This document shows positions 21,321-57,294 of a stretch of 64,000 bases of DNA, one piece after another (positions within the stretch are counted from its first letter, which is position 1; each line of letters begins with the position of its first letter). The DNA lies in assembly GCA_023898465.1 (NCBI GenBank), contig CP060223.1:576001-640000 (forward strand), given 5' to 3'. The position numbers and the translations under genes were made by a program. The DNA is from Candidatus Nomurabacteria bacterium. Its GTDB lineage: Bacteria; Patescibacteriota; Patescibacteriia; HK-STAS-PATE-3. The notes under the pieces were generated by a model. That model was not told the DNA's origin. It was given only the letters and a program-made list of their open reading frames with translations, and made no database searches.

Positions 21321-21336
21321 TTCGGTTTTTCTTCGG
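21321..21336 (+). promoter_or_regulatory. Second copy of TTCGGTTTTTCTTCGG, 3 nt upstream of the Y-family polymerase start codon
   Basis: tatcTTCGGTTTTTCTTCGGcctATG. Exact 16/16 identity to the lexA promoter element. Confidence 0.45.
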
Positions 21337-21339
21337 CCT

Positions 21340-33081: not shown

Positions 33082-33087
33082 GAAACA

Positions 33088-34101
33088 ATGCGTACACGGC
33101 AAAACCTCACTGTCATCCTTATCACTTTAGGCCTTCTGACAGGAGGTTTTGCTTCTGCGCAGAGCATCGAGCGGCCAACCCAAACGCAAGTTCCAATTGT
33201 ACAGTTAGCGCTAGATGGCCCAAGCCAAGTAGATGCTGGGGCTACTTTTACCTACACACTTCGCTACTCAATTAGCGATTTCAGCACGAGTAATGTTGTC
33301 CTCTCTTTAGCGCTCCCGGCCCGAGCTATTCTGCTTGAGAATAGTGGTAATGGCGCAATCAACGATGTGACGCAAAGTGTAGAATGGAGTTACTCAAACA
33401 AGGAAATTGGCGACTATACCGAGACTGCCACATTTAGCGCCTTAACACCTGCGCCAAATGGTACGGAAATATCTTTTCAGGCAACACTAGACAGTGACGA
33501 GACTGAGGTAATTTCCGCGCAAGCAAACAGCGCAATAATGTCGAGCCCTAAGCTTGAATATCGCTCTCAGCTTTCCTCCCCTATTCTCCAGCCTGGTGGT
33601 GAAATAACCGTAACACTCACTATTGATAATTCTGGTTCTGATGATGCAAATGGTGTGCAATTACATGAAGTACTTCCAGAAGGACTGCATTCCGCTGATC
33701 AAGGAGAGTTGTCATACTCACTCGGCACAATTCCAGCTGGTCAGCAGGTCGAAGTAAGTTATCCGGTGCGCGCTGATGCAGGATTACTCAATCAAGAATA
33801 TATTGGCAAGTTAGCGTTAAGTGCTACAAATGTAGCAATGCAAACATCTGACCATATTTATATTGTTCGGCAGCCTCTCGTTCTAGGAGCAGAGGCTGAG
33901 GCTCTAAATCAAACAAGTCAGGAGTCTGCAGCTCAAGAAGGACAAGTACTCGGCGCAGAGACTGAGTTAAGTCCAACAGGTATGAGCTTCTGGGATTGGC
34001 TACTCATCTATGCTGCCGCTCTCTTATTAGCCCTAGGTGTAACGACTCTTATTTTCGCCCCTCACAGTAAAGAACACGATAAGCGCATTGAAGAAAAATA
34101 A
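33088..34101 (+). CDS. Cell-surface protein with variant sorting signal (LSPTG)
   Basis: Signal peptide. DUF11-like repeats. C-terminal LSPTGMSFWDWLLIYAAALLLALGV then charged tail. Confidence 0.65.
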   Translation: MRTRQNLTVILITLGLLTGGFASAQSIERPTQTQVPIVQLALDGPSQVDAGATFTYTLRYSISDFSTSNVVLSLALPARAILLENSGNGAINDVTQSVEWSYSNKEIGDYTETATFSALTPAPNGTEISFQATLDSDETEVISAQANSAIMSSPKLEYRSQLSSPILQPGGEITVTLTIDNSGSDDANGVQLHEVLPEGLHSADQGELSYSLGTIPAGQQVEVSYPVRADAGLLNQEYIGKLALSATNVAMQTSDHIYIVRQPLVLGAEAEALNQTSQESAAQEGQVLGAETELSPTGMSFWDWLLIYAAALLLALGVTTLIFAPHSKEHDKRIEEK

Positions 34102-34793
34102 TGCCAAGCGATACCAAGGCCTCGGGGGAGCTCAAACAAACTAAGCAGAGCAGTAAGGCAATGCCACAGATTGGATGGAGTCAGCGACGACTTCGCACAG
34201 TGCGTATTCTGGCTATTGTACTTATTCTTATTGGAATTGGCGTTATCCTCTACCCCTTCTTCCCTGCCATTCGCTACGAGCTTTTTCATCCAGAACCCGC
34301 ATATCCCTACAGCACTAAACTACAAGAAACGAATGTCGAGGAAAATGGTGGACACCTCCCAGACGTTGCTGATACACTCCCCTCAGAAAGCCGCCTCGTC
34401 ATCCCAAAAATTGGGGTGAACATGCAGATTGTTGAAGGAGAGAATGAGTCCGCACTTTTCCGCGGATCATGGCGTTTGCCGCAAACTTCGACACCTGAAA
34501 AAGGCGGCAATACAGTCCTGACTGTGCATCGCTTCCAGTATCTCGCCGGACCCAATACCCTCGCCCTGGCTGATCGTTTAGAGGCTGGCGATATCGTGAT
34601 AGTGTATTGGAAAGGACAGGATGGACAAGTAAAAGAGTACGACTACCAAATAAGCAAAACGTATTTAGTCGACCCGCACCAGGTGGAAATCCTCGACAAC
34701 ACTGAGGAGCCTAAACTCACACTTTTCACCTGCGCCCCAATGTTTTCAACCAAACAACGACTCGTTATTGACGGAGCATTAATAGAAAATTAA
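34101..34793 (+). CDS. srt: Sortase (transpeptidase)
   Basis: N-terminal TM anchor. Conserved catalytic H (TVLTVHRFQY) and the TLxTC active-site motif (LTLFTCAP). Confidence 0.8.
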   Translation: MPSDTKASGELKQTKQSSKAMPQIGWSQRRLRTVRILAIVLILIGIGVILYPFFPAIRYELFHPEPAYPYSTKLQETNVEENGGHLPDVADTLPSESRLVIPKIGVNMQIVEGENESALFRGSWRLPQTSTPEKGGNTVLTVHRFQYLAGPNTLALADRLEAGDIVIVYWKGQDGQVKEYDYQISKTYLVDPHQVEILDNTEEPKLTLFTCAPMFSTKQRLVIDGALIEN

Positions 34794-34805
34794 CTATTCA
34801 CCGAT

Positions 34806-35879
34806 ATGGCTATGACTAAACCGCAAACTGTTGGAGGGATGCGAACAATGTCGTGGCGAACTATGCTGAAAAGCATATTCATCGCTGCGTTCGTCTTAGT
34901 AAGTGCCAGCTGGACAAGCACCGTCCTGGCTGAAGAGGCAAATATTGACCTCGTAATCTCCCCTACTCAAGCAGGGATCACGGCGGGAGAAAGTATGCAA
35001 TTCAGCCTGCAGGCCACTAATCGCGATACTGGTGCAAGCTGGGATGCAACTAACTACGCGAGCTTTAGCACTACCGATCCAACCGGCACAATCACTGGGG
35101 GTCTTTATCAGGCTCGCAGTGCCGGGACCTGGACTATTAACGCTGACTACTCCGGCCGTACTATCAGCACGAAGGTAAATGTCACACCTGGCCCTGTTCA
35201 GCACATCGTAATTGATCCGAACTCTTATCCTGAGTATGTCACCGTGACGAAAGTGAAACAGTTCAGCGCTCGAGCCTATGACGCTTGGAATAACCAAATT
35301 TCAAATCCTGAGCTTCGTTGGTCATTAAGCGGAAATATCGGCACCCTCAGTACTGAGGGAGTCTTTACTGCTACGCAAGTTGGCGAAGGCACTATAACCG
35401 TAAGTTCTGAAACTGTCAGCGCCAAAGTAGACGTGGTTGGTCAAACCGCTCGAGTGGTAAATACAAATGTAAGCACTAGTAATGCCAACACATCAAATAG
35501 CAATGTGAGTGAAGAAAATGAGAGTACAAGCGGTGAAGTACTCGGTGAAAATGATGAAATGACTGGTGATGAAGAAATGATGACTGATGAGGAAGCGAAC
35601 GAAGCAAGTTGCTGGGATATCCACTGGTGGGGATGGCTACTCACTATGATCGTTTACTTCGTTCTCCTCTACGGATTCTACTACATGGTTCGAGGCACTG
35701 ATGACAGCTGGATCTGGATTGGACCCGTAGTTCTTACTGCCGCGGCTCTGGCAATCTTCTTTGCCTTCCGCTGCGACGGCACTGCAGCCTGGTTCCCCTG
35801 GCTAAGTATCATCGGCGGACTCTTGATCACGCTTTTCCGCCCATTAAAGTTCGTACCAAAAAACGGCGACTCTCTCTAA
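34806..35879 (+). CDS. Surface/membrane protein with Big_2-like Ig domains and C-terminal TM helices
   Basis: Signal peptide. Ig-like repeats. Acidic linker. C-terminal multi-helix hydrophobic region. Confidence 0.5.
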   Translation: MAMTKPQTVGGMRTMSWRTMLKSIFIAAFVLVSASWTSTVLAEEANIDLVISPTQAGITAGESMQFSLQATNRDTGASWDATNYASFSTTDPTGTITGGLYQARSAGTWTINADYSGRTISTKVNVTPGPVQHIVIDPNSYPEYVTVTKVKQFSARAYDAWNNQISNPELRWSLSGNIGTLSTEGVFTATQVGEGTITVSSETVSAKVDVVGQTARVVNTNVSTSNANTSNSNVSEENESTSGEVLGENDEMTGDEEMMTDEEANEASCWDIHWWGWLLTMIVYFVLLYGFYYMVRGTDDSWIWIGPVVLTAAALAIFFAFRCDGTAAWFPWLSIIGGLLITLFRPLKFVPKNGDSL

Positions 35880-37637: not shown

Positions 37638-37973
37638 CTACTCGCTACTCAATCCTAAATCGCTCAACTGCAACTCGACCCACTCTCCACTTTCTGGGTC
37701 CTGGCGAAAGAGTTGCAAGAAATCAACTGTCTCGGTGTCGCTATACTCTTTTTCAATCTGCACATCTCCACCAATGCGCTTTGATACAATCGCCTTCTCT
37801 CCCACAAATCGTCCGCGTACGCTACGACTTAATTTCATGTTTCCTTGGGGGCCACGAAAAATAAGTGTCTCGGTAGCACCGTGTCCATCCTCGTCTGGCT
37901 CAGTCGACCTCGACTGTAAATCCAGCTTCTCCTCTATCATCTCACAAATTTCTTCCCATTTTTCATCAAGCAT
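37638..37973 (-). CDS. Hypothetical acidic small protein
   Basis: 111 aa, no motif recognised. Translationally coupled to the upstream receiver gene. Confidence 0.35.
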   Translation of the reverse strand: MLDEKWEEICEMIEEKLDLQSRSTEPDEDGHGATETLIFRGPQGNMKLSRSVRGRFVGEKAIVSKRIGGDVQIEKEYSDTETVDFLQLFRQDPESGEWVELQLSDLGLSSE

Positions 37974-38448
37974 ATTGTTTTTCTTCTGGACTCAATTTGT
38001 TATGCTCCTGATTTGCCCGCTCCTCTGCTTCTAAAAATCCAGCTATTTTTGGATCAACTTCCAATTTCGGAATCTTGCCTGCCAGGAAATCACGCACTCG
38101 ACTCACTAAAGCATGAGGGTCGAAATTTGACTTCACAATAAAATCATTACCACCTAGGTATGCCACACGCTGCTGACTTACCATATCCCCTAAGTTTGAA
38201 ATTACCATAATAGGCAATTTCTTTGTCTCAGGATCTGCACGCAAAATTCTAATTACCTCATAGCCGTCAATTTTAGGCATGAGTAAATCAGCTAAAACTA
38301 AATCTGGCTTAAACTCCTTTACCTCCGCTAATACTCGAGAAGCATCAGCTAAGGCTAGTACGGTAAAACCTGACTTCTCGAAAAGTACCCGGTAGAGTCG
38401 TCGGATCGTTTCAGTGTCTTCGAGAATAAGAATTCGTGTTGTAGCCAT
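37966..38448 (-). CDS. Single-domain response regulator (CheY-like receiver)
   Basis: ILILEDTE...DLVLADLLMPKIDGYEV...MVISNLGD receiver signature, no output domain. Confidence 0.75.
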   Translation of the reverse strand: MATTRILILEDTETIRRLYRVLFEKSGFTVLALADASRVLAEVKEFKPDLVLADLLMPKIDGYEVIRILRADPETKKLPIMVISNLGDMVSQQRVAYLGGNDFIVKSNFDPHALVSRVRDFLAGKIPKLEVDPKIAGFLEAEERANQEHNKLSPEEKQYA

Positions 38449-45990: not shown

Positions 45991-46599
45991 ATGCACCACA
46001 ATACTATTGCCCTCGATATCGTACTTTTTCCACCGGAGGAAATCGCCAAAGAGGCAAAGTCTTACAATGAGGAATTGTTGCAGCAAAATCCAGCGGGTTT
46101 ATGTTTAGACGCCACACACCTTCCTCATATGACGCTTATGCAGCTCTATGCAAACTCTGAGAAGCTGCCCGACATAGTAGACAGTATTAGGACCATCAGT
46201 CATCAATTCCAAGCACTGCCTTTACGAATAAATGGCATCAAGGGAATAGCGTTAGAAAATGAACGTGCTTTTTTCCTTACATTGGACCCACAGCCAGAGC
46301 TCTTCCGACTCCACCGTGATCTCATGAATAAACTTCAAACGTATGAAGTAGCGACTGATGCAAAGGCATTTCTACTTGATGCGGATGAGGAAGCTCGACC
46401 GAGCACTCTAGCCTATACCAAAAACTTCCGTGAGCAGGTAAGTTTTGATCACTTTGATCCTCATATAACCATTGGAACTGGTGAACAAATAGACTTTCGC
46501 AACCCAATGGAATTCCTAGCTAGTCAACTAGCAATCTGTCATCTAGGAAATTTCAATACCTGCCGAAAAATACTTTGGGAAACCCAATTAGGTAGATAG
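45991..46599 (+). CDS. 2H phosphoesterase superfamily protein (LigT/2'-5' RNA ligase-like)
   Basis: Two H-x-T-x motifs (HMTLMQ and HITIGT) at the expected spacing. Confidence 0.6.
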   Translation: MHHNTIALDIVLFPPEEIAKEAKSYNEELLQQNPAGLCLDATHLPHMTLMQLYANSEKLPDIVDSIRTISHQFQALPLRINGIKGIALENERAFFLTLDPQPELFRLHRDLMNKLQTYEVATDAKAFLLDADEEARPSTLAYTKNFREQVSFDHFDPHITIGTGEQIDFRNPMEFLASQLAICHLGNFNTCRKILWETQLGR

Positions 46600-46632: not shown

Positions 46633-47871
46633 TTAGCGCTTTCTTTGATGAAGAAGGAGTTTCCAGGATAGCTTCTCGGTATACTCCATTGAGCCAATGC
46701 GAAACATCGCAAAAGCAAGATACAGACCAATCACAATGTAGAGGAACACTGCAGCAACGCCTAGGAGTAATTCCCCTATTCCTATTGCATCCACTGATGA
46801 ACGGAATAAGAGAACGAGCGGTGCGGTGAATGGAAAAAAGCTAAAGAAGCGAGCAATAGATCCACCAGGATCAGTCGCTAAAATACTCGCGAGATAAATC
46901 GGCAGAATTGAAAGCATAATAAAGATCGAGGAAAACTGTTGCGCATCTCGATAGTTTGGCATTGCCGCACCCACGCCAACCATAATACTCGCAATGAAGA
47001 AGAAGCCGGAAAAAACAAAGTACAGAGCAATAAGTATTTGTCCAAAGGAAATGTGAACCATTGACCAATTAATGTCGATCAGGGTTGCACTAGACACCAT
47101 GCCAATAGCGAGAATAATAGCGCTCAGAGTGAGGAGTTGTGTAAGCGCCACTGCGGTGAGTCCAAGCAACTTCCCCCATAACAATGTCCGCATTGGCACG
47201 ATTGAGCGAACAATCTCAATCATGCGATTTTCCTTTTCCTCAGAAATACTCATCAACATATAACTTGAGGACATCATCACGAGCAGGAAGTATATTACGA
47301 CAGCCACGATCGGCAGAACCAAGCTCTCAATTCCTCCTTGCACAACATCGCCGTCTTTGTAGAGTGTATGCGTTACCGCTATATCACTGTTAAATAACTC
47401 TATTTCCTGGTTATCACCTACTTTAGAAAGTATGCTTTGCTTTAATAAGTTTTTTGCTAAGTCATCAAAACGCCCGCGAGTTGCAAAGCTGGTATCCTCA
47501 ACCACCAACTCAACTTGTTTCGTCTCAGTCACATTTGCAGGCACAATAATCGCTGCATCCGCCTGCTTGTCTTGAACTGCGCTCCGGGCAGCGCTTGCAT
47601 CCATCGTCGAAACAATGGCACCCTGATAGTACTCTGGAAGAATAATCCCTGACTCATCAACAACGAGTATCTCTTTAGCATTTTTTACTTGCTCTTGGAT
47701 TTTCTTTTCTGCTGAACTGGCCGAGAGAGTTGATACGAGTAAGAGCACTACATAGAGCGCCGGAATAAGGAATATGACTGCCCAAAAAGATTTTTTGCGA
47801 ACAATTTTCCACCACTCCCGAAACGCAATAATCCAAAGCTTAGATTGCATTGTCTTGTTGGATACGAACAA
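46633..47871 (-). CDS. ABC-2 family transporter permease
   Basis: N-terminal TM, large extracytoplasmic loop, then about 5 C-terminal TM helices. Adjacent to an ABC ATPase. Confidence 0.6.
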   Translation of the reverse strand: MFVSNKTMQSKLWIIAFREWWKIVRKKSFWAVIFLIPALYVVLLLVSTLSASSAEKKIQEQVKNAKEILVVDESGIILPEYYQGAIVSTMDASAARSAVQDKQADAAIIVPANVTETKQVELVVEDTSFATRGRFDDLAKNLLKQSILSKVGDNQEIELFNSDIAVTHTLYKDGDVVQGGIESLVLPIVAVVIYFLLVMMSSSYMLMSISEEKENRMIEIVRSIVPMRTLLWGKLLGLTAVALTQLLTLSAIILAIGMVSSATLIDINWSMVHISFGQILIALYFVFSGFFFIASIMVGVGAAMPNYRDAQQFSSIFIMLSILPIYLASILATDPGGSIARFFSFFPFTAPLVLLFRSSVDAIGIGELLLGVAAVFLYIVIGLYLAFAMFRIGSMEYTEKLSWKLLLHQRKR

Positions 47872-48742
47872 AAATTTCCTGCAATGAAGGTAGAGCTAAG
47901 GAAAAATGAGAAACTGCAACATTTTGCTCAATTAAATAGCGCAGCACACTCTCTGGATTTACTTCAGGGCGTAAGGTTAACCGCGCAGCATCATTACCAA
48001 GCTCCACTTCATACAATTCTGCATTCCTTGGAAAATCACCCTTATAGCGTACATCCACCATTCGCTCACCAAAGCTTTCCTTCACTTCTCGGACACCTCC
48101 GTAGAGGACGCGCTTGCCATTCTTTAACATAACTAATCGATCGGCAATCCGTTCTACCTCATCCATGAGGTGAGTAATGAAGACTATGGTACTCCCCTGC
48201 GCTTTTAATCCATCCAACAAATCCATAAGTAGTGATCGGTTCACAGGGTCTAAGCCGCGGGTCGGCTCATCAAGTATGAGCAACTTTGGCTGATTAAGTA
48301 TGGCAATGCCTAGCTGTACCTTTTGCTGCTGTCCAGAAGAGAGACGCTTAATGCGCTCGTTCTTCTTATCAATCAGACCCACACGCTCTAAATATTCTTC
48401 GCTCTGCTTCTTAGCTTCCATTGAGCTCATCCCTCGCAGCTCGCCAAAATACTTGAGCGTCTCATATACACTCGCATCTGAATACAACCCCCGCTCCTCT
48501 GGGAGATAACCAACTTTCGGTGCCAGGGCTGGACCATAGTCTTGGTCAAAAATCCTCATGACACCCTTACTCGGCGTAAGTAAACCTAAGAGGCAACGAA
48601 TAGTCGTTGTCTTACCTGATCCGTTTGCACCGAGAAAAGCAAAGGTCTCTCCTGCGCCAACCTCAAAAGAGAGGTCACGAACAACCTCTTTTGATCCAAA
48701 TGATTTTGCAAAACCTTCGATGCGAATAACTGAATCACTCAT
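47840..48742 (-). CDS. ABC transporter ATP-binding protein
   Basis: Walker A GANGSGKTT, signature LSSGQQQKV, Walker B LILDEPT. Confidence 0.88.
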   Translation of the reverse strand: MSDSVIRIEGFAKSFGSKEVVRDLSFEVGAGETFAFLGANGSGKTTTIRCLLGLLTPSKGVMRIFDQDYGPALAPKVGYLPEERGLYSDASVYETLKYFGELRGMSSMEAKKQSEEYLERVGLIDKKNERIKRLSSGQQQKVQLGIAILNQPKLLILDEPTRGLDPVNRSLLMDLLDGLKAQGSTIVFITHLMDEVERIADRLVMLKNGKRVLYGGVREVKESFGERMVDVRYKGDFPRNAELYEVELGNDAARLTLRPEVNPESVLRYLIEQNVAVSHFSLALPSLQEIFVRIQQDNAI

Positions 48743-48803: not shown

Positions 48804-49178
48804 CTAGACGCCGAGTTTCGTTTTCACTTTTTCAACTAAATCTTCTAGCTTCCAGTCTGCCTTTACGAGAAAATCAAAAACCTTATTCTCAAGCGCTTTC
48901 TGCACTTTGTCAGCATCATTTAAGTTGGTCAACATCATAACCGGCACGTCGCTCCCCCACTCATCATCCCGTAATTGTGACAACATGGTAATCCCATCCA
49001 TCTTAGGCATGACAATATCGAGCAGAATGAGGTCAGGATGTTCCTGCATTGCTACTGATAGTCCCTGTATACCATCACTAGCTCGAAGCACTGTAAACTT
49101 TTCATGCTCTAACTTATCACCGAGTGCCCGAAGTAATGCTGAATCATCTTCAACAACGAGAATTTTTTTTACTGGCAT
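48804..49178 (-). CDS. Single-domain response regulator (receiver only), paralog 1
   Basis: ILVVEDD...DLILLDIVMPKMDGITM...MMLTNL. 124 aa. Confidence 0.8.
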   Translation of the reverse strand: MPVKKILVVEDDSALLRALGDKLEHEKFTVLRASDGIQGLSVAMQEHPDLILLDIVMPKMDGITMLSQLRDDEWGSDVPVMMLTNLNDADKVQKALENKVFDFLVKADWKLEDLVEKVKTKLGV

Positions 49179-49180
49179 AA

Positions 49181-49555
49181 TTATTTTAACCCTTCCTTAA
49201 TTTTTTTAATTATATCTTCTAAAGTCCATTCTGATTTCACTATAAACTGACTCACCCCGCCGGCGATTGCCTTATCTTTTTCCCCGGCATAATCTAAATT
49301 GGTCAATATCATGACTTTGACATTTTTACCCCAATCATCCTCACGGAGTTTTTCCAACATTGTCATCCCGTCCATCTTAGGCATGACAATATCGAGCAGG
49401 ATGAGATCGGGATGTTTACTAAAGGCAACATTTAAACCCGCCATACCATCAGGAGCCTCCAAGCAAGTGTACTTTTCTTTTGACAACTTTTGACAAAGCG
49501 CCTGACGAATTGACGGATCATCCTCGATAACCAGTATTGTTTTTGTACTCTGCAT
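49181..49555 (-). CDS. Single-domain response regulator (receiver only), paralog 2, tandem duplicate of the previous
   Basis: ILVIEDD...DLILLDIVMPKMDGMTM...MILTNL. 124 aa. Roughly 50% identical to its neighbour. Confidence 0.8.
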   Translation of the reverse strand: MQSTKTILVIEDDPSIRQALCQKLSKEKYTCLEAPDGMAGLNVAFSKHPDLILLDIVMPKMDGMTMLEKLREDDWGKNVKVMILTNLDYAGEKDKAIAGGVSQFIVKSEWTLEDIIKKIKEGLK

Positions 49556-49557
49556 AG

Positions 49558-49956
49558 TTACTCCTTAAGGTCTAACGAGCGCTCGATTGCATCGACAATT
49601 GCATCGAGTCGATGGTCGGTTTTAGTGAAATAATTTTGAATACCAAGTTGAAGATAGGCTTTTTGCGCATCAGCACTTGCAGTATTTGAAACGACAAAAA
49701 CTGGGATATTTTTCCAGCGGGAATCTTCAGCCTTTATCTTTGCCAGGAAATGAAGGCCATTATCACTTCCTAATAAATAATGATCTAGCCAAATCACATC
49801 AATACGATCAATCTCTTCAATGTAATGCAAGGCCTGTTCAGATGTTCGGGCGCATACTACAGAAAAATCTCGACTTTCAAGTTTTTTTTGGATTGCGCTG
49901 GCGAGAGGGCGCTCATCCTCAACTACAAGTATAACCTTATCAATTTTTTGTACCAT
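49558..49956 (-). CDS. Single-domain response regulator (receiver only), divergent third copy
   Basis: VILVVEDERPL...DVIWLDHYLLGSDNGLHFLAKIK...VFVVSN. 132 aa. Confidence 0.7.
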   Translation of the reverse strand: MVQKIDKVILVVEDERPLASAIQKKLESRDFSVVCARTSEQALHYIEEIDRIDVIWLDHYLLGSDNGLHFLAKIKAEDSRWKNIPVFVVSNTASADAQKAYLQLGIQNYFTKTDHRLDAIVDAIERSLDLKE

Positions 49957-49965
49957 AGCGTAATA

Positions 49966-52389
49966 TTATGAACTTATTAAACCCTTATTTCCCTGCTGTG
50001 CTCGCATACCTTTAATAGGCAGACTTACTAAAAATGTCGTACCCTTTCCCTCTTCTGAAACAAAGCTGATTTTCCCTCCGGCCATTTCTACGACCGCTTT
50101 TGCAATATAGAGACCTAGACCAGTACCGTCTGTCTCCCTTACTTTTACATTATCAGCTCGGAAAAGTTTTGTGAAGATCTTATCTTGCTGTTTCTGAGGT
50201 ATGCCATAACCGTTATCTTTAATTTCCACGATGGCATTTTTTTGTTCAAGATACATTTTAACCCAAATTTTACCTTTTTCGGGGGTATACTTTACTGCAT
50301 TGCTAAGGAGATTATCAAACACTATCTGAATCAATTTTGGATCAAGATGGATTAATGGGATCCCCTTTTTAGTTTGCATCACTAACTTAATTTCTTTTTC
50401 ATTGATCATTGGTTGAAGTAGCGACGCGCTCACTCGACACAGCTCGGTAATATCCGTTGGTTGAGGATCTACAGCTAAAGTTCCTAGCTCTATGCGAGAG
50501 ACATTTAATAATGCATTTACCAAATCCACCATGCGTTGATTACCGTGGTATATTTCCTTCACATATTCAAGCTGATTTTTTTTCAGCTTACCCACGTCAC
50601 CATCTAGCAGCATTTCAGCATACCAATTAATCGCTGAAATAGGCGTACGTAATTGATGAGAAGCTAGAGAAACAAACTCAGTTTTTGCTCGATCGATTTC
50701 TTTTTCCTTTGTAATATCTCTTTCAATACCTACAAAGAATAACACATTGTTATCGTCATCTAATACCGGACTAACTGTCACCGATGCTTCATATATCTCA
50801 CCGTTCTTGCGCTTATTTTTTACCTCACCTTTAAAAGTAAGCTTCTTTTGAAAAATTGTAGTCCAAAACTTGCTATAAAATGCTTTTGGCATGAGGCCGC
50901 CCCAAAGCTCTCGCCCACCCGCCTTCTTACCTATTATCTCATTGGCTGAAAAACCAGTTATTTTTGTTGTTGCGTCATTAGCATATACAATAATCCCATC
51001 CGGATTTGTAATTACTATTTGATCGGAAGCCTGATCTACCGCTAAGCCAAATTTCTTTAAGTCCTGAGCTAAGAGTAAGGATCGATCTTTTTCTTGCTTC
51101 ACATCCTTCAGAGACTGGGTTAGTTTAGCTTTTGATTCAGCTAAACCTTTTTTTTGACGCTCTACAAGGGTGAGATTTCGACTAAGTTCAGCGGTACGAT
51201 CTGCTACTCTTTTTTCTAAAGTACTGCGATTCTTTTCTACTACGCCACGCATTTTCTCAAACGATTTTGCTAAGAGAGAAATCTCGTTGCTTGCACTAAA
51301 ACGATTAAGCGGTAGAGGTTTTGAAAAATTATTTTGCGCTATGGCATTAGATGCCTCAGTGAGGGTGCGCAACGGTGAGGTGATAAGGCTCGCGAGCAGA
51401 AAAGTGATCGCGGTAATGGCAATAAGACTTAACACACCAATCCGAATCGCCTCATTACTAAGCACGGTGACTGGTGCGAACAAACTACTCTCCGTGTACA
51501 CAGAGATGAGCGCCCAATAACGTTCAGGATGAGCTGGGTCATAAAAAACCTTCTTCCAAGTACGGAACTCTTGATCATCGCTATCTCGCTCAATCGCCTC
51601 ATCAAACGCGGCTACACGATCCTTCATTTCTGGATGAAGTACAAAATAATTTGCTCGGTTAGGCAGGACAAAGCCGTAAAGCAAATAAGAATCCGGATGT
51701 ATAAGTATATTTCCCTCACTATCAATGAGGACCTCGTACTGAGTTTCGGTGCTTACACTTCGGAGACCTTCCTGAATAACATCATTTGCATGCAAGTTGA
51801 GCACAACATAGCCCTCAATGACTTTAGTCTCGTCGTTTCGAACCTTGGCTACAACTCTCAGCACTGGCACATAGGGCTCTTGTATTTTTCCATACGCGAT
51901 ATTTAAATCATATGGGGAAATGAAAACATCAGTATTAGAACTTTGCGCTTCCTGAAAGTACTCCCACGCTGATTCATCCTCAAGTTGAGATCCTTCTACT
52001 ATTTGAACAACCCCGTTATCTCCGTCTACACGCACCATCTCTTTGCCATCCAGATCGAGATACTTTATACGAAAAATTCTTGGGTCGGCCTTTAGAAAAG
52101 ATTGAAATATTTGTTGAGTCTCGGTAATCGCCTGAGTACGAGCCTCGTTTTCACTGCCTGGTAATTTTGTGAGGCTTGGATAATCACGCAAAGAAAGCAC
52201 AAGGCGGTAATACGTTTCTAGTTCATCTTCCACATGTACAGCCTCTGACTCCACTACCCCTTTTTCTTGTTCTAAGATTCTGGCTTCTAAATTTGTCCTA
52301 GCCTGAAAAAATACTAAAAACCCCAGCACAAGCATAGGAATAGCAGCGAGTACTAGAAATATGAGCGCAAGTCGTATTCGTATACCCAT
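49966..52389 (-). CDS. Sensor histidine kinase: TM, periplasmic sensor (Cache-like), TM, HAMP, PAS, HisKA, HATPase_c
   Basis: Two TM helices flanking a roughly 280-aa extracytoplasmic domain. H-box SHQLRTPISAI. G-boxes DNGYGIP and GTGLGLYIAK. Confidence 0.85.
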   Translation of the reverse strand: MGIRIRLALIFLVLAAIPMLVLGFLVFFQARTNLEARILEQEKGVVESEAVHVEDELETYYRLVLSLRDYPSLTKLPGSENEARTQAITETQQIFQSFLKADPRIFRIKYLDLDGKEMVRVDGDNGVVQIVEGSQLEDESAWEYFQEAQSSNTDVFISPYDLNIAYGKIQEPYVPVLRVVAKVRNDETKVIEGYVVLNLHANDVIQEGLRSVSTETQYEVLIDSEGNILIHPDSYLLYGFVLPNRANYFVLHPEMKDRVAAFDEAIERDSDDQEFRTWKKVFYDPAHPERYWALISVYTESSLFAPVTVLSNEAIRIGVLSLIAITAITFLLASLITSPLRTLTEASNAIAQNNFSKPLPLNRFSASNEISLLAKSFEKMRGVVEKNRSTLEKRVADRTAELSRNLTLVERQKKGLAESKAKLTQSLKDVKQEKDRSLLLAQDLKKFGLAVDQASDQIVITNPDGIIVYANDATTKITGFSANEIIGKKAGGRELWGGLMPKAFYSKFWTTIFQKKLTFKGEVKNKRKNGEIYEASVTVSPVLDDDNNVLFFVGIERDITKEKEIDRAKTEFVSLASHQLRTPISAINWYAEMLLDGDVGKLKKNQLEYVKEIYHGNQRMVDLVNALLNVSRIELGTLAVDPQPTDITELCRVSASLLQPMINEKEIKLVMQTKKGIPLIHLDPKLIQIVFDNLLSNAVKYTPEKGKIWVKMYLEQKNAIVEIKDNGYGIPQKQQDKIFTKLFRADNVKVRETDGTGLGLYIAKAVVEMAGGKISFVSEEGKGTTFLVSLPIKGMRAQQGNKGLISS

Positions 52390-52410: not shown

Positions 52411-53094
52411 TTATCGCTCCTTTTTACGGAAATCGTAACGCAAGCAGCCCTCGCAGCTGCAATTAAGAAAATTTGTCATACTGGCTAAACGTCGACCAAG
52501 GAGCCGGGCTACCTTCTTATCGCCCTGACTCAACTTCTTCTCTCCTCGATGCCCACTTACAAAAATACCCCCATATGGACTGCCGGCATCAAAATCAACA
52601 CCCTCCCCTTGTACTGGATAAGGGATACCTACTGGAATCATGCCTAGATTTAATAAAGGAATAATCAATGAAAGTAATGTTGCTTCTTCACCAGAGTGAA
52701 TACTACCACCTGAACAGAATACTGCAGCTGGCTTATTCACCAACTTCCCCTCTAACCATATAGGTGATAAACCATCAAGGAATTGCTTCAACTGAGAAGC
52801 AAAAGAACCAAAATGCACCGGGGTTCCCAGCGCGACTCCATCAGCGTTAATAAAATCGTCTAAACTTGCTTCAGGGAACTCTTTAGTCAAGCTATTATGC
52901 ACTTTTTTTAACTTTGGGTTTTTTCGAAAAAAAGAAGCGGGCAAAAGCTCGGGAACTCTCATTACCTTCACTTCAACATCACCTATCTCTCGTGCTCCCT
53001 GCGCAATAATTTTAGCCAACTCTGCTGTCTTACCGGTAAAACTATAAAAAAGCACGAGCACTGAAAGCTTTTTTGTATGAATTTTTGTTTGCAT
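52411..53094 (-). CDS. Flavodoxin-like NAD(P)H:quinone oxidoreductase (WrbA-like)
   Basis: LVLFYSFTGKTAELAK flavodoxin-fold FMN-binding N-terminus. WrbA-like length. Confidence 0.6.
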   Translation of the reverse strand: MQTKIHTKKLSVLVLFYSFTGKTAELAKIIAQGAREIGDVEVKVMRVPELLPASFFRKNPKLKKVHNSLTKEFPEASLDDFINADGVALGTPVHFGSFASQLKQFLDGLSPIWLEGKLVNKPAAVFCSGGSIHSGEEATLLSLIIPLLNLGMIPVGIPYPVQGEGVDFDAGSPYGGIFVSGHRGEKKLSQGDKKVARLLGRRLASMTNFLNCSCEGCLRYDFRKKER

Positions 53095-53196: not shown

Positions 53197-53448
53197 ATGA
53201 AGACCATGAAAAATACACATCATGATGCTCACCACTTCTTTGGAACGACCACGCTAGGTGAAAAAGGTCAGGTGGTAATACCGGCCGAGACGAGAAAGGC
53301 GCTGAATTTAAAGCCAGGCGACAAACTGCTAGTCTTTGGCATGGGTAAAAATATGATCACGCTGACAAAGTTTGAACAGCTCGAGAAATTTACCAATATT
53401 ATGAGCAAGCGACTCGACGGCCTGCGTAAAATCCTCCGAGACGCTTAA
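53197..53448 (+). CDS. AbrB/MazE/SpoVT-family DNA-binding protein
   Basis: Swapped-hairpin motif GQVVIPAETRKALNLKPGDKLLVF. His-rich N-terminus. 83 aa. Directly upstream of the ABC exporter pair. Confidence 0.6.
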   Translation: MKTMKNTHHDAHHFFGTTTLGEKGQVVIPAETRKALNLKPGDKLLVFGMGKNMITLTKFEQLEKFTNIMSKRLDGLRKILRDA

Positions 53449-53449
53449 T

Positions 53450-55216
53450 ATGCGCACACTCCTCCGCTTCGTCCGTCCTTATACATGGACCATAGTTTTA
53501 TTGGTTGGCTTTGTGTATGCCAGCGTGGCTGCCAACCTGGCTTTGCCCGATTATATGGCCAATATTATTAATAATGGCATTGTGGGTAAGGATATTGGCC
53601 TGGTCTGGCGAACAGGGTTGGAGATGCTCGCAATATCACTTGGTGGAGCAGCGGCCAGCTTCTTTGTTACCCTACTCGCCTCTCGTATTGCCAGTGGGTT
53701 TTCCCGTGACGTGCGAGAAGCGCTTTTTAGTAAGATCGAAAGCTTTTCTTTAAGCGAATTTAATACCTTCTCAACCGCTTCACTCATTACCCGCTCAACA
53801 AACGATGTCCAACAGTTGCAAACGGTGCTAGTCATCCTCCTACGTATGGCCCTAATGGCGCCAATTATGGGTATCTGGGCGATTATTAAAGCCTACACAA
53901 ACGCTCCGTCAATGACCTGGCTCATGGGTCTAGCAGTCGGTGTATTATTAGTGATTATTTCAGTTATTCTGGCTATTGCGATTCCGAAGTTTACTGCCCT
54001 GCAAAAGTTAGTTGATAAGTTAAACCTTGTTACTCGCGAGTTACTCACTGGACTTCGGGTTATCCGGGCCTTTCACCGCGAAGAAGCTGAGGAAACAAAA
54101 TTTGATAAAGCGAATGTTGAGCTTACGCAGCTTAACCTCTTTGTGAATCGACTCATGATCCTCCTGCAGCCAATTATGATATTCATCATGAATGTTACTA
54201 CATTGGCAATTGTTTGGTATGGCGCAAAGTTAGTTGATGCAGGAGACCTCCAAATCGGTCAAATGATTGCCTTTATGCAGTATGCCATGCAGGCCGTCTT
54301 TGCTTTCCTGTTGATCACTATGGTCTTTATTATGGTCCCTCGGGCTTCTGTCTCGGCTAAGCGCATTGGCGAAGTATTACGAACCAAGGCCACTATTCTT
54401 GACCCGGAAAAACCTGAGCAAGTTGAAAAACTGCAAAACGGAAAAGTGGAATTTGACCACGTTACCTTTTCCTACGGCCAAGCTGACACTCCTGTGCTGC
54501 ACGATATTTCCTTCACCGCTGAATCAAATCAAACCACGGCCTTTATCGGAAGTACTGGGAGCGGCAAGTCTACTTTGATCAACCTTATCCCCCGCTTTTA
54601 TGATGTGAGCTCCGGGGCTATTCGTATCGATGGTCTAGATATTCGACAACTACGCCAAGAGGATCTCTACAGTCGGATCGGTTTTGTTCCACAGAAGGGC
54701 GTCTTATTCTCCGGCACGGTGCGTAGTAATCTCACCTATGGGGCTCCAGATGCCAGTGAAGAGGAAATTCGCCGAGTTGCCCACATTGCCCAAGCTGATG
54801 AATTCATTGAGAAACTTGAAGGTGCTTATGGCGCGCCTATTTCTCAGGGCGGTACAAATGTTTCCGGTGGACAAAAACAACGCCTCTCCATCGCCCGAGC
54901 AATTCTGCATAAGCCACTCATCTATATCTTCGATGATAGTTTTTCAGCACTTGATTTCGCCACAGACGCAAAATTACGAAATGCGCTACGCAATGAGACA
55001 AGAAACAAAACGGTCTTGATTGTTGCCCAACGCATTAGCACTATTATGAATGCTGACAAGATTGTCGTGTTAAACGAAGGTCGGATTGTTGGACAAGGCA
55101 AGCACGCTGAGCTCATGGAAACTTGCCAAGTCTATCGTGAGATCGCACTATCTCAACTCTCAGAGGAAGAACTACAGGGCTCAGGAATAAAGACACTAAG
55201 TGCAGCAAACGCATGA
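53450..55216 (+). CDS. ABC exporter, fused permease-ATPase (type I exporter), subunit 1 of a heterodimeric pair
   Basis: Six TM helices then an NBD with Walker A GSTGSGKST, signature VSGGQKQRLSIARA and Walker B IYIFDDSFSALD. Confidence 0.88.
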   Translation: MRTLLRFVRPYTWTIVLLVGFVYASVAANLALPDYMANIINNGIVGKDIGLVWRTGLEMLAISLGGAAASFFVTLLASRIASGFSRDVREALFSKIESFSLSEFNTFSTASLITRSTNDVQQLQTVLVILLRMALMAPIMGIWAIIKAYTNAPSMTWLMGLAVGVLLVIISVILAIAIPKFTALQKLVDKLNLVTRELLTGLRVIRAFHREEAEETKFDKANVELTQLNLFVNRLMILLQPIMIFIMNVTTLAIVWYGAKLVDAGDLQIGQMIAFMQYAMQAVFAFLLITMVFIMVPRASVSAKRIGEVLRTKATILDPEKPEQVEKLQNGKVEFDHVTFSYGQADTPVLHDISFTAESNQTTAFIGSTGSGKSTLINLIPRFYDVSSGAIRIDGLDIRQLRQEDLYSRIGFVPQKGVLFSGTVRSNLTYGAPDASEEEIRRVAHIAQADEFIEKLEGAYGAPISQGGTNVSGGQKQRLSIARAILHKPLIYIFDDSFSALDFATDAKLRNALRNETRNKTVLIVAQRISTIMNADKIVVLNEGRIVGQGKHAELMETCQVYREIALSQLSEEELQGSGIKTLSAANA

Positions 55217-57294
55217 GCGACCAAGAACGTAAAACCCAAAACAGCGGAGCTAGCACCCAATCTGGTCGTCCTATGATGCGACCAATGGGTGGTGGCAACC
55301 CTATGGCAATGATGCAGGCCGCAGCGAAGCCAAAAAACTTCAAGCGGACTATGCGTCAACTCGCCACCTATCTTAAGCCGTATTGGAAAAAGATTATTCT
55401 GGTACTAGTCTTGGCCATGGCGAGCACGGTTTTCTTAATCGCTAGCCCAAAAATACTCGGGCGTATGACCAATCAAGTAGTGGATGATTTTGTAGATGTC
55501 ACTGTATATAAGCAGCTGGTGGCAAAACTCCCGGCCGGTACTACTTTCCCAGAAGGTACTACCGGGGCTGATGTGCTCGCCCAACTCCCTCCCGAAACTA
55601 TTGAAAGCATGCCTGATTTTGCGAAAAGCGCATTAGAAAAACTGGACTTATCACAGGCCCCAAGTTTTCACTATGACATACTGCGCAACATTGCGCTTGA
55701 ACTCATGATCCTCTACCTCTTAAGCGCGCTTTTTAGCTACATACAAGGATGGATTATTACCGACGTATCGCAGAAAGTTACTTATCAGTTTCGTCGCGAT
55801 ATTTCCACAAAGATTGGCCGGATGCCTTTACGCTATTTTGATAAAACAACTCATGGTGAAGTACTTAGTCGAGTAACGAATGATGTCGATACCGTGAGTC
55901 AAACTCTCAATCAATCATTAGCGCAAATTATTACCGCCGTCACAGCGCTGATTGGCATACTTATCATGATGTTCTCGATCAGTTGGGAAATGACTCTCGT
56001 GTCTTTAGTCACCCTGCCAATGAGTTTTGGATTGCTTCGCGTCATTGTTGTGCGCTCGCAGCGTTTCTTTAAGCAGCAGCAAGATACGCTTGGACATTTG
56101 AATGGACATATCGAGGAAATGTTTAGCGGCCACACCGTTATGAAAGTGTTTAATGGTCAGAAGCGTTCGGTGGCCAAATTCACTAAAAATAATGACGAGC
56201 TCTATGGGAGTGCCTGGAAGTCGCAATTCCTTTCTGGGCTCCTCTTCCCGCTTACCAACTTTGTCGGCAACTTGGGCTATGTTGGCGTGACCGTCGTTGG
56301 CGGCTATTTAGCTCTGCATGGTCGGGTGAACATTGGCGATATCCAGGCCTTTATCCAATACGTCAACCAATTCAATCAACCAATTATCCAAACCGCAAAT
56401 GCGGCAAATGTGCTGCAGTCCACAGCTGCTTCAGCTGAGCGGGTATTTGAATTCCTGGCTGAAGAAGAGCAGAGCCCTGAAGCTCATCTGGAGAAAAAAG
56501 TATCGCAGGTCACCGGATCGGTCGAGTTTGAAGATGTAGTTTTTGGCTACACTCCAGGGCAAACGATTATTAAGAATTTCACTGCGCATATCAAAGCTGG
56601 TCAACGGGTAGCCATCGTAGGTCCGACCGGTGCAGGTAAAACCACCATCGTGAACTTGCTTATGCGCTTCTATAATGTAGACAGTGGGACTATTAAAATT
56701 GATGGAATCGACACACGCACAATGTCGCGCGCTGAAGTCCGAGAGCTCTTTGGTATGGTATTACAAGACACTTGGCTCTTCCATGGCACGATTAGAGAAA
56801 ACCTCCTCTACGGCAAGCCACAGGCAAGTGAAGAAGAGCTCATCGAAGCTGCGAAGGCCGCGCATGTTGATCACTTCATCCACTCACTCCCCCATGGCTA
56901 TGACATGGTACTTGATGAAGAGGCGAATAATATCTCGCAAGGTGAAAAACAATTACTCACCATTGCACGAGCAATGCTCATTAAATCACCAATGTTGATA
57001 TTAGATGAGGCGACCAGCTCGGTTGATACTCGCACCGAGATCCTTATTCAAAAGGCTATGGATCGACTGATGCATGCAAAGACAAGCTTCATTATCGCCC
57101 ATCGTCTGTCCACTATTAAGAATGCTGACCTCATCTTAGTCATGCGTGATGGTAATATTGTTGAGCAAGGCAAGCACGAGGAACTGCTCAAGCAGCAAGG
57201 CTTCTACGCCTCTCTCTACAACAGTCAGTTCGTGGCACCACTGATCGAAGAAGCAGAGCCCGTCACTCAAAAGCTGCATTCAGTCCCGGCCTAG
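55213..57294 (+). CDS. ABC exporter, fused permease-ATPase, subunit 2, with Met/Gly/Pro-rich N-terminal extension
   Basis: Walker A GPTGAGKTT, signature ISQGEKQLLTIARA, Walker B LILDEATSSVD. 4-bp overlap with subunit 1. Confidence 0.88.
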   Translation: MSDQERKTQNSGASTQSGRPMMRPMGGGNPMAMMQAAAKPKNFKRTMRQLATYLKPYWKKIILVLVLAMASTVFLIASPKILGRMTNQVVDDFVDVTVYKQLVAKLPAGTTFPEGTTGADVLAQLPPETIESMPDFAKSALEKLDLSQAPSFHYDILRNIALELMILYLLSALFSYIQGWIITDVSQKVTYQFRRDISTKIGRMPLRYFDKTTHGEVLSRVTNDVDTVSQTLNQSLAQIITAVTALIGILIMMFSISWEMTLVSLVTLPMSFGLLRVIVVRSQRFFKQQQDTLGHLNGHIEEMFSGHTVMKVFNGQKRSVAKFTKNNDELYGSAWKSQFLSGLLFPLTNFVGNLGYVGVTVVGGYLALHGRVNIGDIQAFIQYVNQFNQPIIQTANAANVLQSTAASAERVFEFLAEEEQSPEAHLEKKVSQVTGSVEFEDVVFGYTPGQTIIKNFTAHIKAGQRVAIVGPTGAGKTTIVNLLMRFYNVDSGTIKIDGIDTRTMSRAEVRELFGMVLQDTWLFHGTIRENLLYGKPQASEEELIEAAKAAHVDHFIHSLPHGYDMVLDEEANNISQGEKQLLTIARAMLIKSPMLILDEATSSVDTRTEILIQKAMDRLMHAKTSFIIAHRLSTIKNADLILVMRDGNIVEQGKHEELLKQQGFYASLYNSQFVAPLIEEAEPVTQKLHSVPA

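What the first reader, a model, noticed from the sequence alone, without database searches (positions are those of the whole stretch)
48804..52389. Histidine kinase followed by three tandem stand-alone receiver proteins (two recent duplicates) with no DNA-binding regulator
A complex sensor kinase (periplasmic Cache-like domain, HAMP, PAS, HisKA, HATPase) is followed on the same strand by three CheY-like receiver-only proteins. The two 124-aa copies are about 50% identical. Both contain DLILLDIVMPKMDG and are separated by 2 bp. A fourth stand-alone receiver lies at 37966-38448. No output-domain response regulator occurs in the window. This suggests a phosphorelay or phosphate-sink network, or signalling by protein-protein interaction rather than transcription.
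Basis: seen in the sequence. Interest (0 to 1): 0.5.

Follow-up and report, generated by a model that had tools for sequence, protein, structure and literature searches.

The report
Sensor kinase with three output-less receivers
A tiny-genome (Patescibacteria) bacterium encodes one membrane sensor kinase followed by three intact receiver-only proteins; this layout recurs across that lineage, and its kinases all lack a residue normally needed for kinase activity.

Summary
On the minus strand lie an 807-aa dCache-HAMP-PAS-HisKA-HATPase kinase (52389..49966) and three receiver-only genes (132, 124, 124 aa), separated by 9, 2 and 2 bp. All four catalytic pockets are complete. They are not frameshifted fragments. 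The window holds only one further receiver (38448..37966), no output-domain regulator and no Hpt.

The source is a Candidatus Nomurabacteria MAG (Patescibacteria/CPR). The layout recurs in this lineage. Of 32 assessable relatives of this kinase, 24 have at least one adjacent receiver-only gene, 12 have at least two and 5 have three. None has an output domain.

RR1 has orthologues that are also the first gene after the kinase. RR2 and RR3 belong to a large CPR receiver-only family. RR2 and RR3 are old paralogues, not recent duplicates (56% aa identity, synonymous sites saturated).

Gln replaces the Glu/Asp next to the phospho-His, and E-to-Q mutants of model kinases lose kinase but keep phosphatase activity.

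Most likely this is a branched kinase-to-three-receivers module that signals through protein-protein contacts. A phosphorelay cannot be excluded without the whole genome.

The parts
49966..52389 (-). Sensor histidine kinase, 807 aa. Layout: TM1 (about aa 5-30), extracytoplasmic dCache-like domain (aa 34-250), TM2 (about aa 314-337), HAMP (331-382), PAS (450-563), HisKA (568-635), HATPase_c (683-792). NCBI protein USN53145.1.
   Evidence: The closest solved relative is T. maritima HK853 (E 1e-40). It scores far below the cut-offs of the WalK, PnpS and PhoR equivalogs.
50641..50667 (-). H-box LASHQLRTP. Phospho-accepting His578 is at 50658-50656. Gln579 (H+1, where HisKA kinases have Glu/Asp) is at 50655-50653. 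Thr582 (H+4, the phosphatase residue) is at 50646-50644.
   Evidence: translation. Gln is invariant in P0001-P0019 and is also present in P0021. It is present in 118 of the 120 closest kinase cores and in the kinases of 7 genome and 24 metagenome loci. The N, G1, F and G2 boxes are intact.
49558..49956 (-). RR1, a 132-aa receiver-only protein of a distinct subfamily (signature IWLD[HY]YL ... SN[TS]A ... HRL). Pocket residues: E13/D14, D58, S90, K112.
   Evidence: Orthologues at 52%, 46% and 40% identity are likewise the first gene after an HQ-type kinase in L091, L087 and L093.
49181..49555 (-). RR2, a 124-aa receiver-only protein of 'family A' (DLILLDIVMPKMDG ... D.WG ... LTNL ... KxxW.LED). 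Pocket residues: E11/D12, D55, T85, K107.
48804..49178 (-). RR3, a 124-aa receiver-only protein of family A. Pocket residues: E10/D11, D54, T84, K106. NCBI protein USN53142.1.
   Evidence: The AF2 model has pLDDT 88.3 and a canonical (beta-alpha)5 fold. Foldseek TMq is 0.86-0.91 to the receiver domains of RpaA, RR468, Spo0F and PleD.
52411..53094 (-). FMN-reductase/flavodoxin-like gene, 21 bp upstream of the kinase on the same strand. It may be co-transcribed, but the link is not conserved in related loci.
46633..48742 (-). DrrA-like ABC ATPase (48742..47840) and ABC-2 permease (47850..46633), starting 61 bp downstream of RR3 on the same strand. They may be co-transcribed and are a candidate but weakly supported target.
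   Evidence: A similar ABC-2 pair lies about 1.4 kb downstream of the closest full-length kinase orthologue (L003), but it is only 31% and 21% identical. It is not recurrent in other loci.
37966..38448 (-). RR4, an orphan 160-aa receiver (REC at 3-122 plus a 38-aa tail). Pocket residues: E10/D11, D54, S84, K106. It is about 32% identical to RR3. It may be a further substrate of the only kinase in the window.

Best explanation
This is an intact, probably co-transcribed two-component module of a Patescibacteria (Candidatus Nomurabacteria) genome. One membrane sensor kinase (extracytoplasmic dCache, cytoplasmic HAMP and PAS) controls the phosphorylation state of three single-domain response regulators. 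These belong to two conserved subfamilies: RR1-type, and two old paralogues of 'family A'.

The receivers have no effector domain, so the output is inferred to be phosphorylation-dependent binding to other proteins, or receiver homo-/hetero-dimerisation, rather than DNA binding. This is a one-kinase, several-receiver branched pathway.

The module is the normal layout for this kinase clade. The clade carries Gln instead of Glu/Asp next to the phospho-His and keeps the phosphatase Thr. The kinase is therefore inferred either to be phosphatase-biased or to autophosphorylate by a non-canonical route.

Shown: gene structure, domain content, catalytic residues and recurrence across lineages.
Inferred: co-transcription, phosphotransfer to all three receivers, protein-protein output, and the kinetic consequence of Gln579.
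For: Anatomy:
- Gene and domain structure.
- All receiver pockets are complete.
- Gaps of 9/2/2 bp and no terminator-like site inside the cluster.
- Only four receivers in the window, with no Hpt or output regulator.

Source: the HK and RR3 are 100% identical to NCBI proteins of a Candidatus Nomurabacteria MAG on a 1.08-Mb contig.

Recurrence:
- RR3 has 915 relatives at E<=1e-5. The top 120 are all PF00072-only, 122-149 aa. All but one of those that carry a lineage name are from CPR lineages.
- Of 34 HQ-type kinases (including this one), 32 are assessable. 24 have at least one adjacent receiver-only gene, 12 have at least two and 5 have three. None has more than 21 residues outside the REC domain.
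- The gene order kinase > RR1-type > family A is repeated in L091 and L093, and L087 also has an RR1-type receiver as its first gene.
- REC-REC fusions of family A exist (P0241, P0242).

Closest solved pair: HK853-RR468, itself a kinase plus a receiver-only regulator.

H-box:
- Gln is invariant in the clade.
- CrdS E372Q and NtrB E140Q are kinase-minus, phosphatase-plus (PMC3510030).
- The H+1 acid acts as the general base, and a natural H+1 variant (DrBphP) acts as a phosphatase (PMC8292422).

Precedent: most archaeal response regulators are also receiver-only and are thought to act by protein-protein contacts (PMC5847659).
Against: - No target protein was identified. The flanks of 13 related CPR loci share no recurrent partner family, and the downstream ABC-2 transporter is not conserved.
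- The rest of the 1.08-Mb genome could not be searched, so an Hpt protein and an output regulator elsewhere remain possible.
- Co-transcription rests only on spacing. The promoter/terminator scan is uninformative.
- Nothing here measures phosphotransfer.
- The intact ATP-binding boxes argue that the kinases still use ATP, so Gln579 need not mean loss of kinase activity.
- Family A receivers also sit next to a second kinase clade with a canonical HELRSP box (L007-L009).
Confidence: 0.7

Rival explanations
1. Multi-step phosphorelay. One or more of the receivers act like Spo0F. They take phosphate from the kinase and pass it through an Hpt/Spo0B-like protein to a terminal regulator with an output domain, encoded elsewhere in the genome.
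For: The receivers are output-less and resemble Spo0F in sequence and fold (E 1e-13; TMq about 0.9). The whole genome was not available.
Against: No Hpt or output regulator lies in the 64-kb window. Every receiver found in the flanks of the 33 other HQ-kinase loci is receiver-only. A Pfam tally of the flanks of 13 related CPR loci lists no Hpt or output domain among its 25 most frequent families, although only 25 of 106 families were shown. The kinase is not a hybrid kinase. The 111-aa ORF coupled to RR4 has no HxxKG motif or Pfam match.
Confidence: 0.15
2. Phosphate sink. Only one receiver carries the signal, and the extra receivers compete for or drain phosphoryl groups to shape the kinetics, like CheY1 of Sinorhizobium or the sink receivers of branched pathways. 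This is compatible with the main explanation for a subset of the three.
For: Three receivers serve one kinase. Copy number varies from 1 to 3 among related loci, so the extra copies are dispensable in some lineages. Two of the three are paralogues.
Against: A family A receiver is the only partner in many loci (L003, L012, L013, L090, L092), so that type is not merely a sink. RR1-type and family A are each conserved in sequence and in gene order, which suggests distinct functions. No kinetic data are available.
Confidence: 0.2
3. Phosphatase-only sensor. Because of Gln579 the 'kinase' cannot autophosphorylate. The receivers are phosphorylated by acetyl phosphate or by another kinase, and this protein only removes the phosphate in response to its signal.
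For: E-to-Q at H+1 abolishes kinase but not phosphatase activity in CrdS, and gives a kinase-minus, phosphatase-competent phenotype in NtrB. DrBphP, with a non-acidic H+1, is a phosphatase. Thr582 at H+4 is retained. Gln is fixed across the clade.
Against: His578 and all ATP-binding motifs (N693/N697, D725xGxG, G755xGLGL) are invariant, as expected for an active kinase. No second kinase lies in this window or in most related loci. Other DHp families (HisKA_2/HWE) are active without an H+1 acid (my own knowledge, not tested here).
Confidence: 0.25
4. Decayed genes. The receivers are remnants of full-length regulators split by frameshifts, or an output gene was overlooked.
For: None beyond the absence of output domains.
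Against: Each ORF runs from a start codon to a stop codon with 2-bp gaps. Identical gene calls were made on two independent assemblies. Hundreds of relatives have the same 122-140 aa length. All catalytic residues are intact. The next gene downstream is an ABC ATPase.
Confidence: 0.01

Closest known systems
Thermotoga maritima HK853-RR468
   Same: A HisKA/HATPase kinase encoded next to a roughly 122-aa receiver-only regulator. It is the best PDB sequence match of the kinase core (E 1e-40). It is among the best fold matches of RR3 (TMq 0.88-0.91).
   Different: HK853 has the canonical HELRTP box (E261), and its E261A mutant is kinase-dead. It has one receiver rather than three, a different sensor region and a different phylum.
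Archaeal two-component systems (Galperin et al. 2018, PMC5847659)
   Same: Receiver-only or output-less regulators predominate and the classical DNA-binding families are absent. Signalling is inferred to run through protein-protein contacts, and conserved neighbourhoods are lacking.
   Different: These are bacterial (CPR) genes. The kinase here is membrane-bound with an extracytoplasmic dCache domain, whereas archaeal kinases are mostly cytoplasmic. There is no evidence of common descent.
Branched pathways with several single-domain regulators (DivJ/PleC-DivK, CheA with several CheY, Myxococcus RedCDEF, Caulobacter MrrA)
   Same: One kinase serves several receiver-only proteins that act as switches, hubs or sinks (literature list; DivK, Spo0F and CheY hits).
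   Different: None of their partner proteins (DivL/CckA, CheW/MCP, PhyR/LovK) is in the window. NCBIfam scores are far below the family cut-offs (for example DVU0259/DivK family 60 bits against a cut-off of 160).
Deinococcus radiodurans bacteriophytochrome DrBphP with its single-domain regulator DrRR
   Same: A HisKA protein with a non-acidic H+1 residue paired with a receiver-only regulator. It is shown to be a phosphatase without kinase activity. DrRR appears among the fold matches (6xvu).
   Different: DrBphP has His at H+1 and Glu at H+4. This clade has Gln at H+1 and the canonical Thr at H+4. The sensor is a phytochrome rather than dCache/PAS.

Membership tests
HisKA-type sensor histidine kinase (Pfam PF00512 + PF02518) | Pfam HisKA and HATPase_c matches above their gathering scores | tested here: met
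   HisKA scores 58.2 bits (cut-off 26.9) and HATPase_c scores 97.5 bits (cut-off 26.4).
HisKA-type sensor histidine kinase (Pfam PF00512 + PF02518) | Phospho-accepting His in the H-box, and N, G1, F and G2 ATP-binding boxes | tested here: met
   H578; N693/N697; D725xGxG; F739; G755xGLGL. All are invariant in the clade alignment.
HisKA-type sensor histidine kinase (Pfam PF00512 + PF02518) | Acidic residue (Glu/Asp) at H+1, required for autophosphorylation | tested here: not met
   Gln579. Gln is present in 118 of the 120 closest homologues. The requirement is documented in PMC3510030 and PMC8292422.
HisKA-type sensor histidine kinase (Pfam PF00512 + PF02518) | Thr/Asn at H+4 (phosphatase residue) | tested here: met
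   Thr582. Thr is present in 118 of 120 homologues.
HisKA-type sensor histidine kinase (Pfam PF00512 + PF02518) | ATP-dependent autophosphorylation and transfer to the receivers | not testable with these tools
   This needs biochemistry.
Named kinase equivalogs WalK / PnpS / PhoR (NCBIfam) | Score at or above the curated cut-off | tested here: not met
   Scores are 235.5 against 725, 226.6 against 400 and 190.9 against 334.2.
Phosphorylatable receiver domain (PF00072) | Acidic pair, phospho-Asp, Thr/Ser and Lys of the active site | tested here: met
   RR1: E13/D14, D58, S90, K112. RR2: E11/D12, D55, T85, K107. RR3: E10/D11, D54, T84, K106. RR4: E10/D11, D54, S84, K106. Pfam scores are 57.9-89.3 bits against a cut-off of 30.2.
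Single-domain (receiver-only) response regulators | No other domain in the protein and no adjacent fused ORF | tested here: met
   The proteins are 124-132 aa with Response_reg as the only meaningful Pfam family. Gaps are 2 bp. Relatives have the same length. The model is a bare (beta-alpha)5 fold.
OmpR/PhoB, NarL, NtrC, LytTR and PleD-type regulators | A C-terminal DNA-binding or enzymatic output domain | tested here: not met
   There is no such Pfam match. The NCBIfam hits cover only the receiver part and lie far below the cut-offs.
CheY (chemotaxis) | Encoded with CheA/CheW/MCP genes, and a score above the CheY model cut-off | tested here: not met
   No che genes were found in the window. 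The haloarchaeal CheY model (NF041367) scores 53 bits against a cut-off of 200.
Spo0F-type phosphorelay | An Hpt/Spo0B phosphotransferase and a terminal output regulator | tested here: inconclusive
   Absent from the window. All receivers in the related loci are receiver-only, and a Pfam tally of the flanks of 13 of them lists no Hpt among the 25 families shown. The rest of the genome could not be searched.
Hybrid histidine kinase | A receiver and/or Hpt domain fused to the kinase | tested here: not met
   The kinase ends 15 residues after HATPase_c.

The most novel reading that the evidence does not exclude
Patescibacteria run much of their two-component signalling through a lineage-specific kinase clade. 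This clade has fixed Gln in place of the catalytic H+1 acid and is wired exclusively to receiver-only proteins.

One possibility is that these sensors are natural kinase-minus, phosphatase-plus enzymes, with acetyl phosphate or another donor supplying the phosphate. The other is that they autophosphorylate without the residue regarded as the general base of HisKA kinases.

In both cases the output would be an archaea-like protein-protein logic, with a conserved CPR target that is still unknown.
Probability: 0.3. Interest if true: 0.7.

Novelty: new variant of a known kind. Interest (0 to 1): 0.5.

Why it matters
CPR/Patescibacteria are a large, mostly uncultivated part of bacterial diversity. 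They have few kinases, and their regulation is poorly understood.

This locus exemplifies a recurrent kinase plus receiver-only module, which gives a concrete and testable picture of how these cells sense their surroundings. A conserved receiver family (55-64% identical across CPR classes) implies a conserved protein target that has not yet been identified.

The fixed Gln next to the phospho-His bears on a textbook rule of histidine-kinase catalysis. Either a whole natural clade works as signal-controlled phosphatases, or the H+1 acid is not universally required. A simple autophosphorylation assay with a Q579E control would decide between the two.

Tried and rejected
- **Whole-genome check for Hpt or output regulators.** The source MAG is not in genome contigs. 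The scan patterns were query-specific, so most of the 80 loci were irrelevant betaproteobacterial receivers at about 37% identity.
- **Search of 1.84 billion representatives with RR3.** The ranking was dominated by multi-receiver proteins whose scores add up. It was useful only for spotting REC-REC fusions.
- **Neighbourhood enrichment.** 114 flanking proteins from 13 CPR loci share no recurrent family beyond housekeeping genes of closely related contigs.
- **Downstream ABC-2 transporter as a conserved target.** The pair in the closest orthologous locus is only 31% and 21% identical, and the pair is absent elsewhere.
- **The 111-aa ORF overlapping the RR4 stop as an Hpt.** It has no Pfam match and no HxxKG motif.
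- **Promoter/terminator scan.** Promoter-like sites are fewer than in shuffles, and there is no terminator in the intergenic gaps. The scan is uninformative for operon limits.
- **Named families.** All WalK, PhoR, PnpS, DivK-like, CheY and Spo0A models score below their cut-offs.
- **Literature.** No paper was found on receiver-only regulators or on an HQ H-box in Patescibacteria.
- **Rfam and tRNA scans.** Only five tRNAs were found, none near the locus.
- **Frameshift or pseudogene reading.** Rejected.


Full report
**1. The observation**

- histidine kinase (HK): 52389..49966, 807 aa
- RR1: 49956..49558, 132 aa
- RR2: 49555..49181, 124 aa
- RR3: 49178..48804, 124 aa

Pfam confirms the kinase architecture: dCache_1/HK_sensor_dom_bact at aa 34-250, HAMP at 331-382, PAS at 450-563, HisKA at 568-635 and HATPase_c at 683-792. 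Hydrophobic segments lie at about aa 5-30 and 314-337, so the Cache-like domain is extracytoplasmic.

Each receiver matches Response_reg and nothing else of substance. The gaps between the genes are 9, 2 and 2 bp.

RR2 and RR3 are 56% identical over 120 residues, and both contain HPDLILLDIVMPKMDG. RR1 is only 27-29% identical to them.

All receivers keep the acidic pair, the phospho-acceptor Asp, the Thr/Ser and the Lys.

phmmer with each receiver against every six-frame ORF of the window finds four receiver domains and no more. The fourth is the 160-aa protein at 38448..37966. Pfam scans of most ORFs of at least 110 aa in the window found no Hpt, no output-domain regulator and no second kinase.

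The same gene calls were made on two independent assemblies of the locus.

**2. The source organism**

The kinase and RR3 are identical to NCBI proteins USN53145.1 and USN53142.1. These come from a 'MAG: Candidatus Nomurabacteria bacterium' on a 1,082,586-bp contig in the Parcubacteria group of the Patescibacteria.

The rest of the window fits such a small genome. It holds a dcw cluster, ribosomal proteins, LexA with a Y-family (DinB-like) polymerase, a sortase with DUF11 surface proteins, UppS and BacA.

**3. The arrangement is a lineage-wide module**

RR3 has 915 relatives at E<=1e-5. The best 120 are all PF00072-only proteins of 122-149 aa, 54-64% identical to RR3. All but one of those that carry a lineage name are from CPR lineages: Falkowbacteria, Daviesbacteria, Magasanikbacteria, Sungbacteria, Parcubacteria and Paceibacterota.

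I called ORFs in CPR genome loci and in metagenome loci recovered with the kinase alignment. I then scanned them with HMMs built from these receivers and kinase cores.

Counting this one, there are 34 kinases of the same clade, of which 32 have assessable flanks:
- 24 have at least one receiver-only gene on the same strand within 1.6 kb
- 12 have at least two
- 5 have three (the window, L010 Daviesbacteria, L011 Microgenomates, L087, L093)

No adjacent receiver has more than 21 residues outside the REC domain. The one apparent exception (L101) is an ORF-extension artefact that overlaps the kinase.

The receivers fall into subfamilies. RR2 and RR3 belong to 'family A', whose signature is DLILLDIVMPKMDG, D.WG, LTNLS and KADWKLEDVV.

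RR1 is a different type. It has orthologues at 52%, 46% and 40% identity that are likewise the first gene after the kinase in L091, L087 and L093. In L091 and L093 a family A receiver follows directly. The gene order kinase > RR1-type > family A is therefore conserved.

Family A also occurs as REC-REC fusion proteins (P0241 and P0242, both halves family A with the Asp present). This suggests that tandem receivers act together.

**4. RR2 and RR3 are not recent duplicates**

- Nucleotide identity is 64%.
- Of the 67 identical residues, only 35 use the same codon, so synonymous sites are essentially saturated.
- RR3 is more similar to receivers of other CPR classes (59-64%) than to RR2.

They are old paralogues, or were acquired independently.

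**5.

The H-box reads LASHQLRTP. Gln579 follows the phospho-accepting His578, where HisKA kinases have Glu or Asp.

Gln is found at this position in:
- the 20 closest full-length relatives
- 118 of the 120 closest kinase cores, some named Minisyncoccia, Taylorbacteria, Pacebacteria or Patescibacteria group
- the kinases of L003, L010-L013, L017 and L018, and of 24 metagenome loci

More distant, non-clade hits have Glu (77) or Asp (6).

The literature is explicit. The H+1 acid is described as strictly conserved and as acting as the general base for autophosphorylation. DrBphP, with a non-acidic H+1, has no kinase activity and is a phosphatase (PMC8292422). CrdS E372Q, like E372A/D/G, has no kinase activity but full phosphatase activity. 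NtrB E140Q behaves the same way, and HK853 E261A is kinase-deficient (PMC3510030).

HK853 is the closest solved relative of this kinase (E 1e-40). Its partner RR468 is itself a receiver-only protein.

Against simple loss of kinase function, His578 and the N, G1, F and G2 boxes are invariant in the clade. Thr582 at H+4, the phosphatase residue, is also kept.

A full-text search for HQLRTP found no paper.

**6. How it most likely works**

*Shown.* There is an intact sensor kinase and three intact, phosphorylatable receiver-only proteins from two conserved subfamilies. The genes are packed as an operon-like unit. The layout recurs across CPR classes, and output domains are absent in every related locus.

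*Inferred.*
- The kinase senses an extracytoplasmic ligand through dCache and possibly a cytoplasmic cue through PAS.
- It sets the phosphorylation level of RR1, RR2 and RR3.
- The phosphorylated receivers act by binding other proteins or each other.

In many loci a family A receiver is the sole partner (L003, L012, L013, L090, L092). That type is therefore the primary output rather than a sink. RR1-type and the second family A copy may add branches or tune kinetics.

The high conservation of family A, including the face around beta5-alpha5 (KADWKLED), points to a conserved target. I could not identify it. The flanks of 13 related CPR loci share no partner family. The downstream ABC-2 transporter is not conserved.

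The AF2 model of RR3 is a canonical (beta-alpha)5 receiver (pLDDT 88.3). Its best matches are the receiver domains of RpaA, RR468, Spo0F and PleD.

**7. Rivals**

- A phosphorelay through an Hpt protein elsewhere cannot be excluded, because the genome is not in the searchable collections. No Hpt lies in the window. Every receiver in the related loci is receiver-only, and none was seen in a Pfam tally of their flanks, though that tally showed only its top 25 families.
- A sink role is plausible for some of the three receivers, but not for family A as a whole.
- A phosphatase-only sensor is a serious possibility raised by Gln579. The intact ATP-binding motifs and the lack of another kinase nearby count against it.
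- Gene decay is rejected.

**8. Comparison with what is known**

The module works like HK853-RR468 and like branched single-domain-regulator pathways such as DivK, multiple-CheY and RedCDEF systems. At the level of the lineage it resembles archaeal two-component systems, where receiver-only regulators dominate and DNA-binding families are missing (PMC5847659).

It is not a member of any named equivalog. WalK, PnpS, PhoR, the DivK-like DVU0259 family, CheY and Spo0A all score far below their cut-offs.

The kinase meets every HisKA criterion except the H+1 acid.

Published work on CPR signalling that I could find only reports low kinase frequencies (PMC10805038). It does not describe this module.

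**9. Verdict**

The finding is real, and its core interpretation (signalling without a transcription-factor output in cis) holds. The 'recent duplication' claim does not hold.

On its own, a kinase with several receiver-only partners is a known kind of system. Two things take it beyond the ordinary: the regularity across the lineage, and the fixed non-canonical H-box.

I rate it a new variant of a known kind, with interest 0.5.

Noticed in passing
window 48804-49956 and 37966-38448; also L003, L007-L018: All four receivers, and every CPR receiver aligned, have Asn immediately after the conserved Thr/Ser ([ST]N motif, T+1 position). From memory, most response regulators have Ala or Gly there. 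The usual Lys-Pro after beta5 is replaced by Lys-Ala/Ser/Thr.
   Followed up: partly
window 49379-49407 (RR2) and 49002-49030 (RR3), minus strand: A 29-nt stretch (CTGCTCGATATTGTCATGCCTAAGATGGA) is identical in RR2 and RR3, although synonymous sites elsewhere are saturated. It could reflect a small gene-conversion tract or strong codon constraint in the LLDIVMPKMD motif.
   Followed up: partly
P0241, P0242 (proteins from the representative library): Proteins of 260-263 aa consist of two family A receiver domains in tandem. Both domains have the phospho-acceptor Asp. This is a fusion counterpart of the RR2-RR3 gene pair.
   Followed up: partly
window 37638-38448 (-): The orphan receiver RR4 (160 aa, with a 38-aa charged tail) overlaps by 8 bp a 111-aa ORF that has no Pfam match. 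The pair sits between a DedA/VTT-domain membrane protein and Fpg. The small ORF has no Hpt motif.
   Followed up: partly
window 45991-46599 (+) and 49558-49956 (-): A LigT-like 2H phosphoesterase lies just beyond the ABC-2 permease. RR1 has a secondary Pfam match to cREC_REC, the 'cyclic-phosphate processing receiver' (34.4 bits against a cut-off of 27). That match is weaker than its Response_reg match (57.9 bits). This is possibly a coincidence.
   Followed up: no
window 53197-57294 (+): A small AbrB/MazE-like (SpoVT-type) DNA-binding protein lies directly upstream of two fused-type ABC exporters (ABC_membrane + ABC_tran). This group is divergent from the flavodoxin-like gene and kinase cluster.
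   Followed up: no
window 20639-22527 (+): A LexA repressor (LexA_DNA_bind + Peptidase_S24) is followed by a Y-family (DinB-like) polymerase. This is a compact SOS-type pair in a reduced genome.
   Followed up: no
window 30709-35879 (+): A surface-protein cluster: a 790-aa protein with four DUF11 repeats, a 337-aa DUF11 protein, a sortase, and a 357-aa protein with no Pfam match.
   Followed up: no
window 23642-25879 (+): A 745-aa ORF has no Pfam match at E<=1e-4. It lies next to the L10/L12 ribosomal genes.
   Followed up: no
L007-L009 (Falkowbacteria and related loci): The family A receivers closest to RR3 (57-61% in the locus alignment) sit after a different kinase clade with a canonical H-box (VHELRSP). 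Family A is therefore not tied exclusively to the Gln-type kinases.
   Followed up: partly
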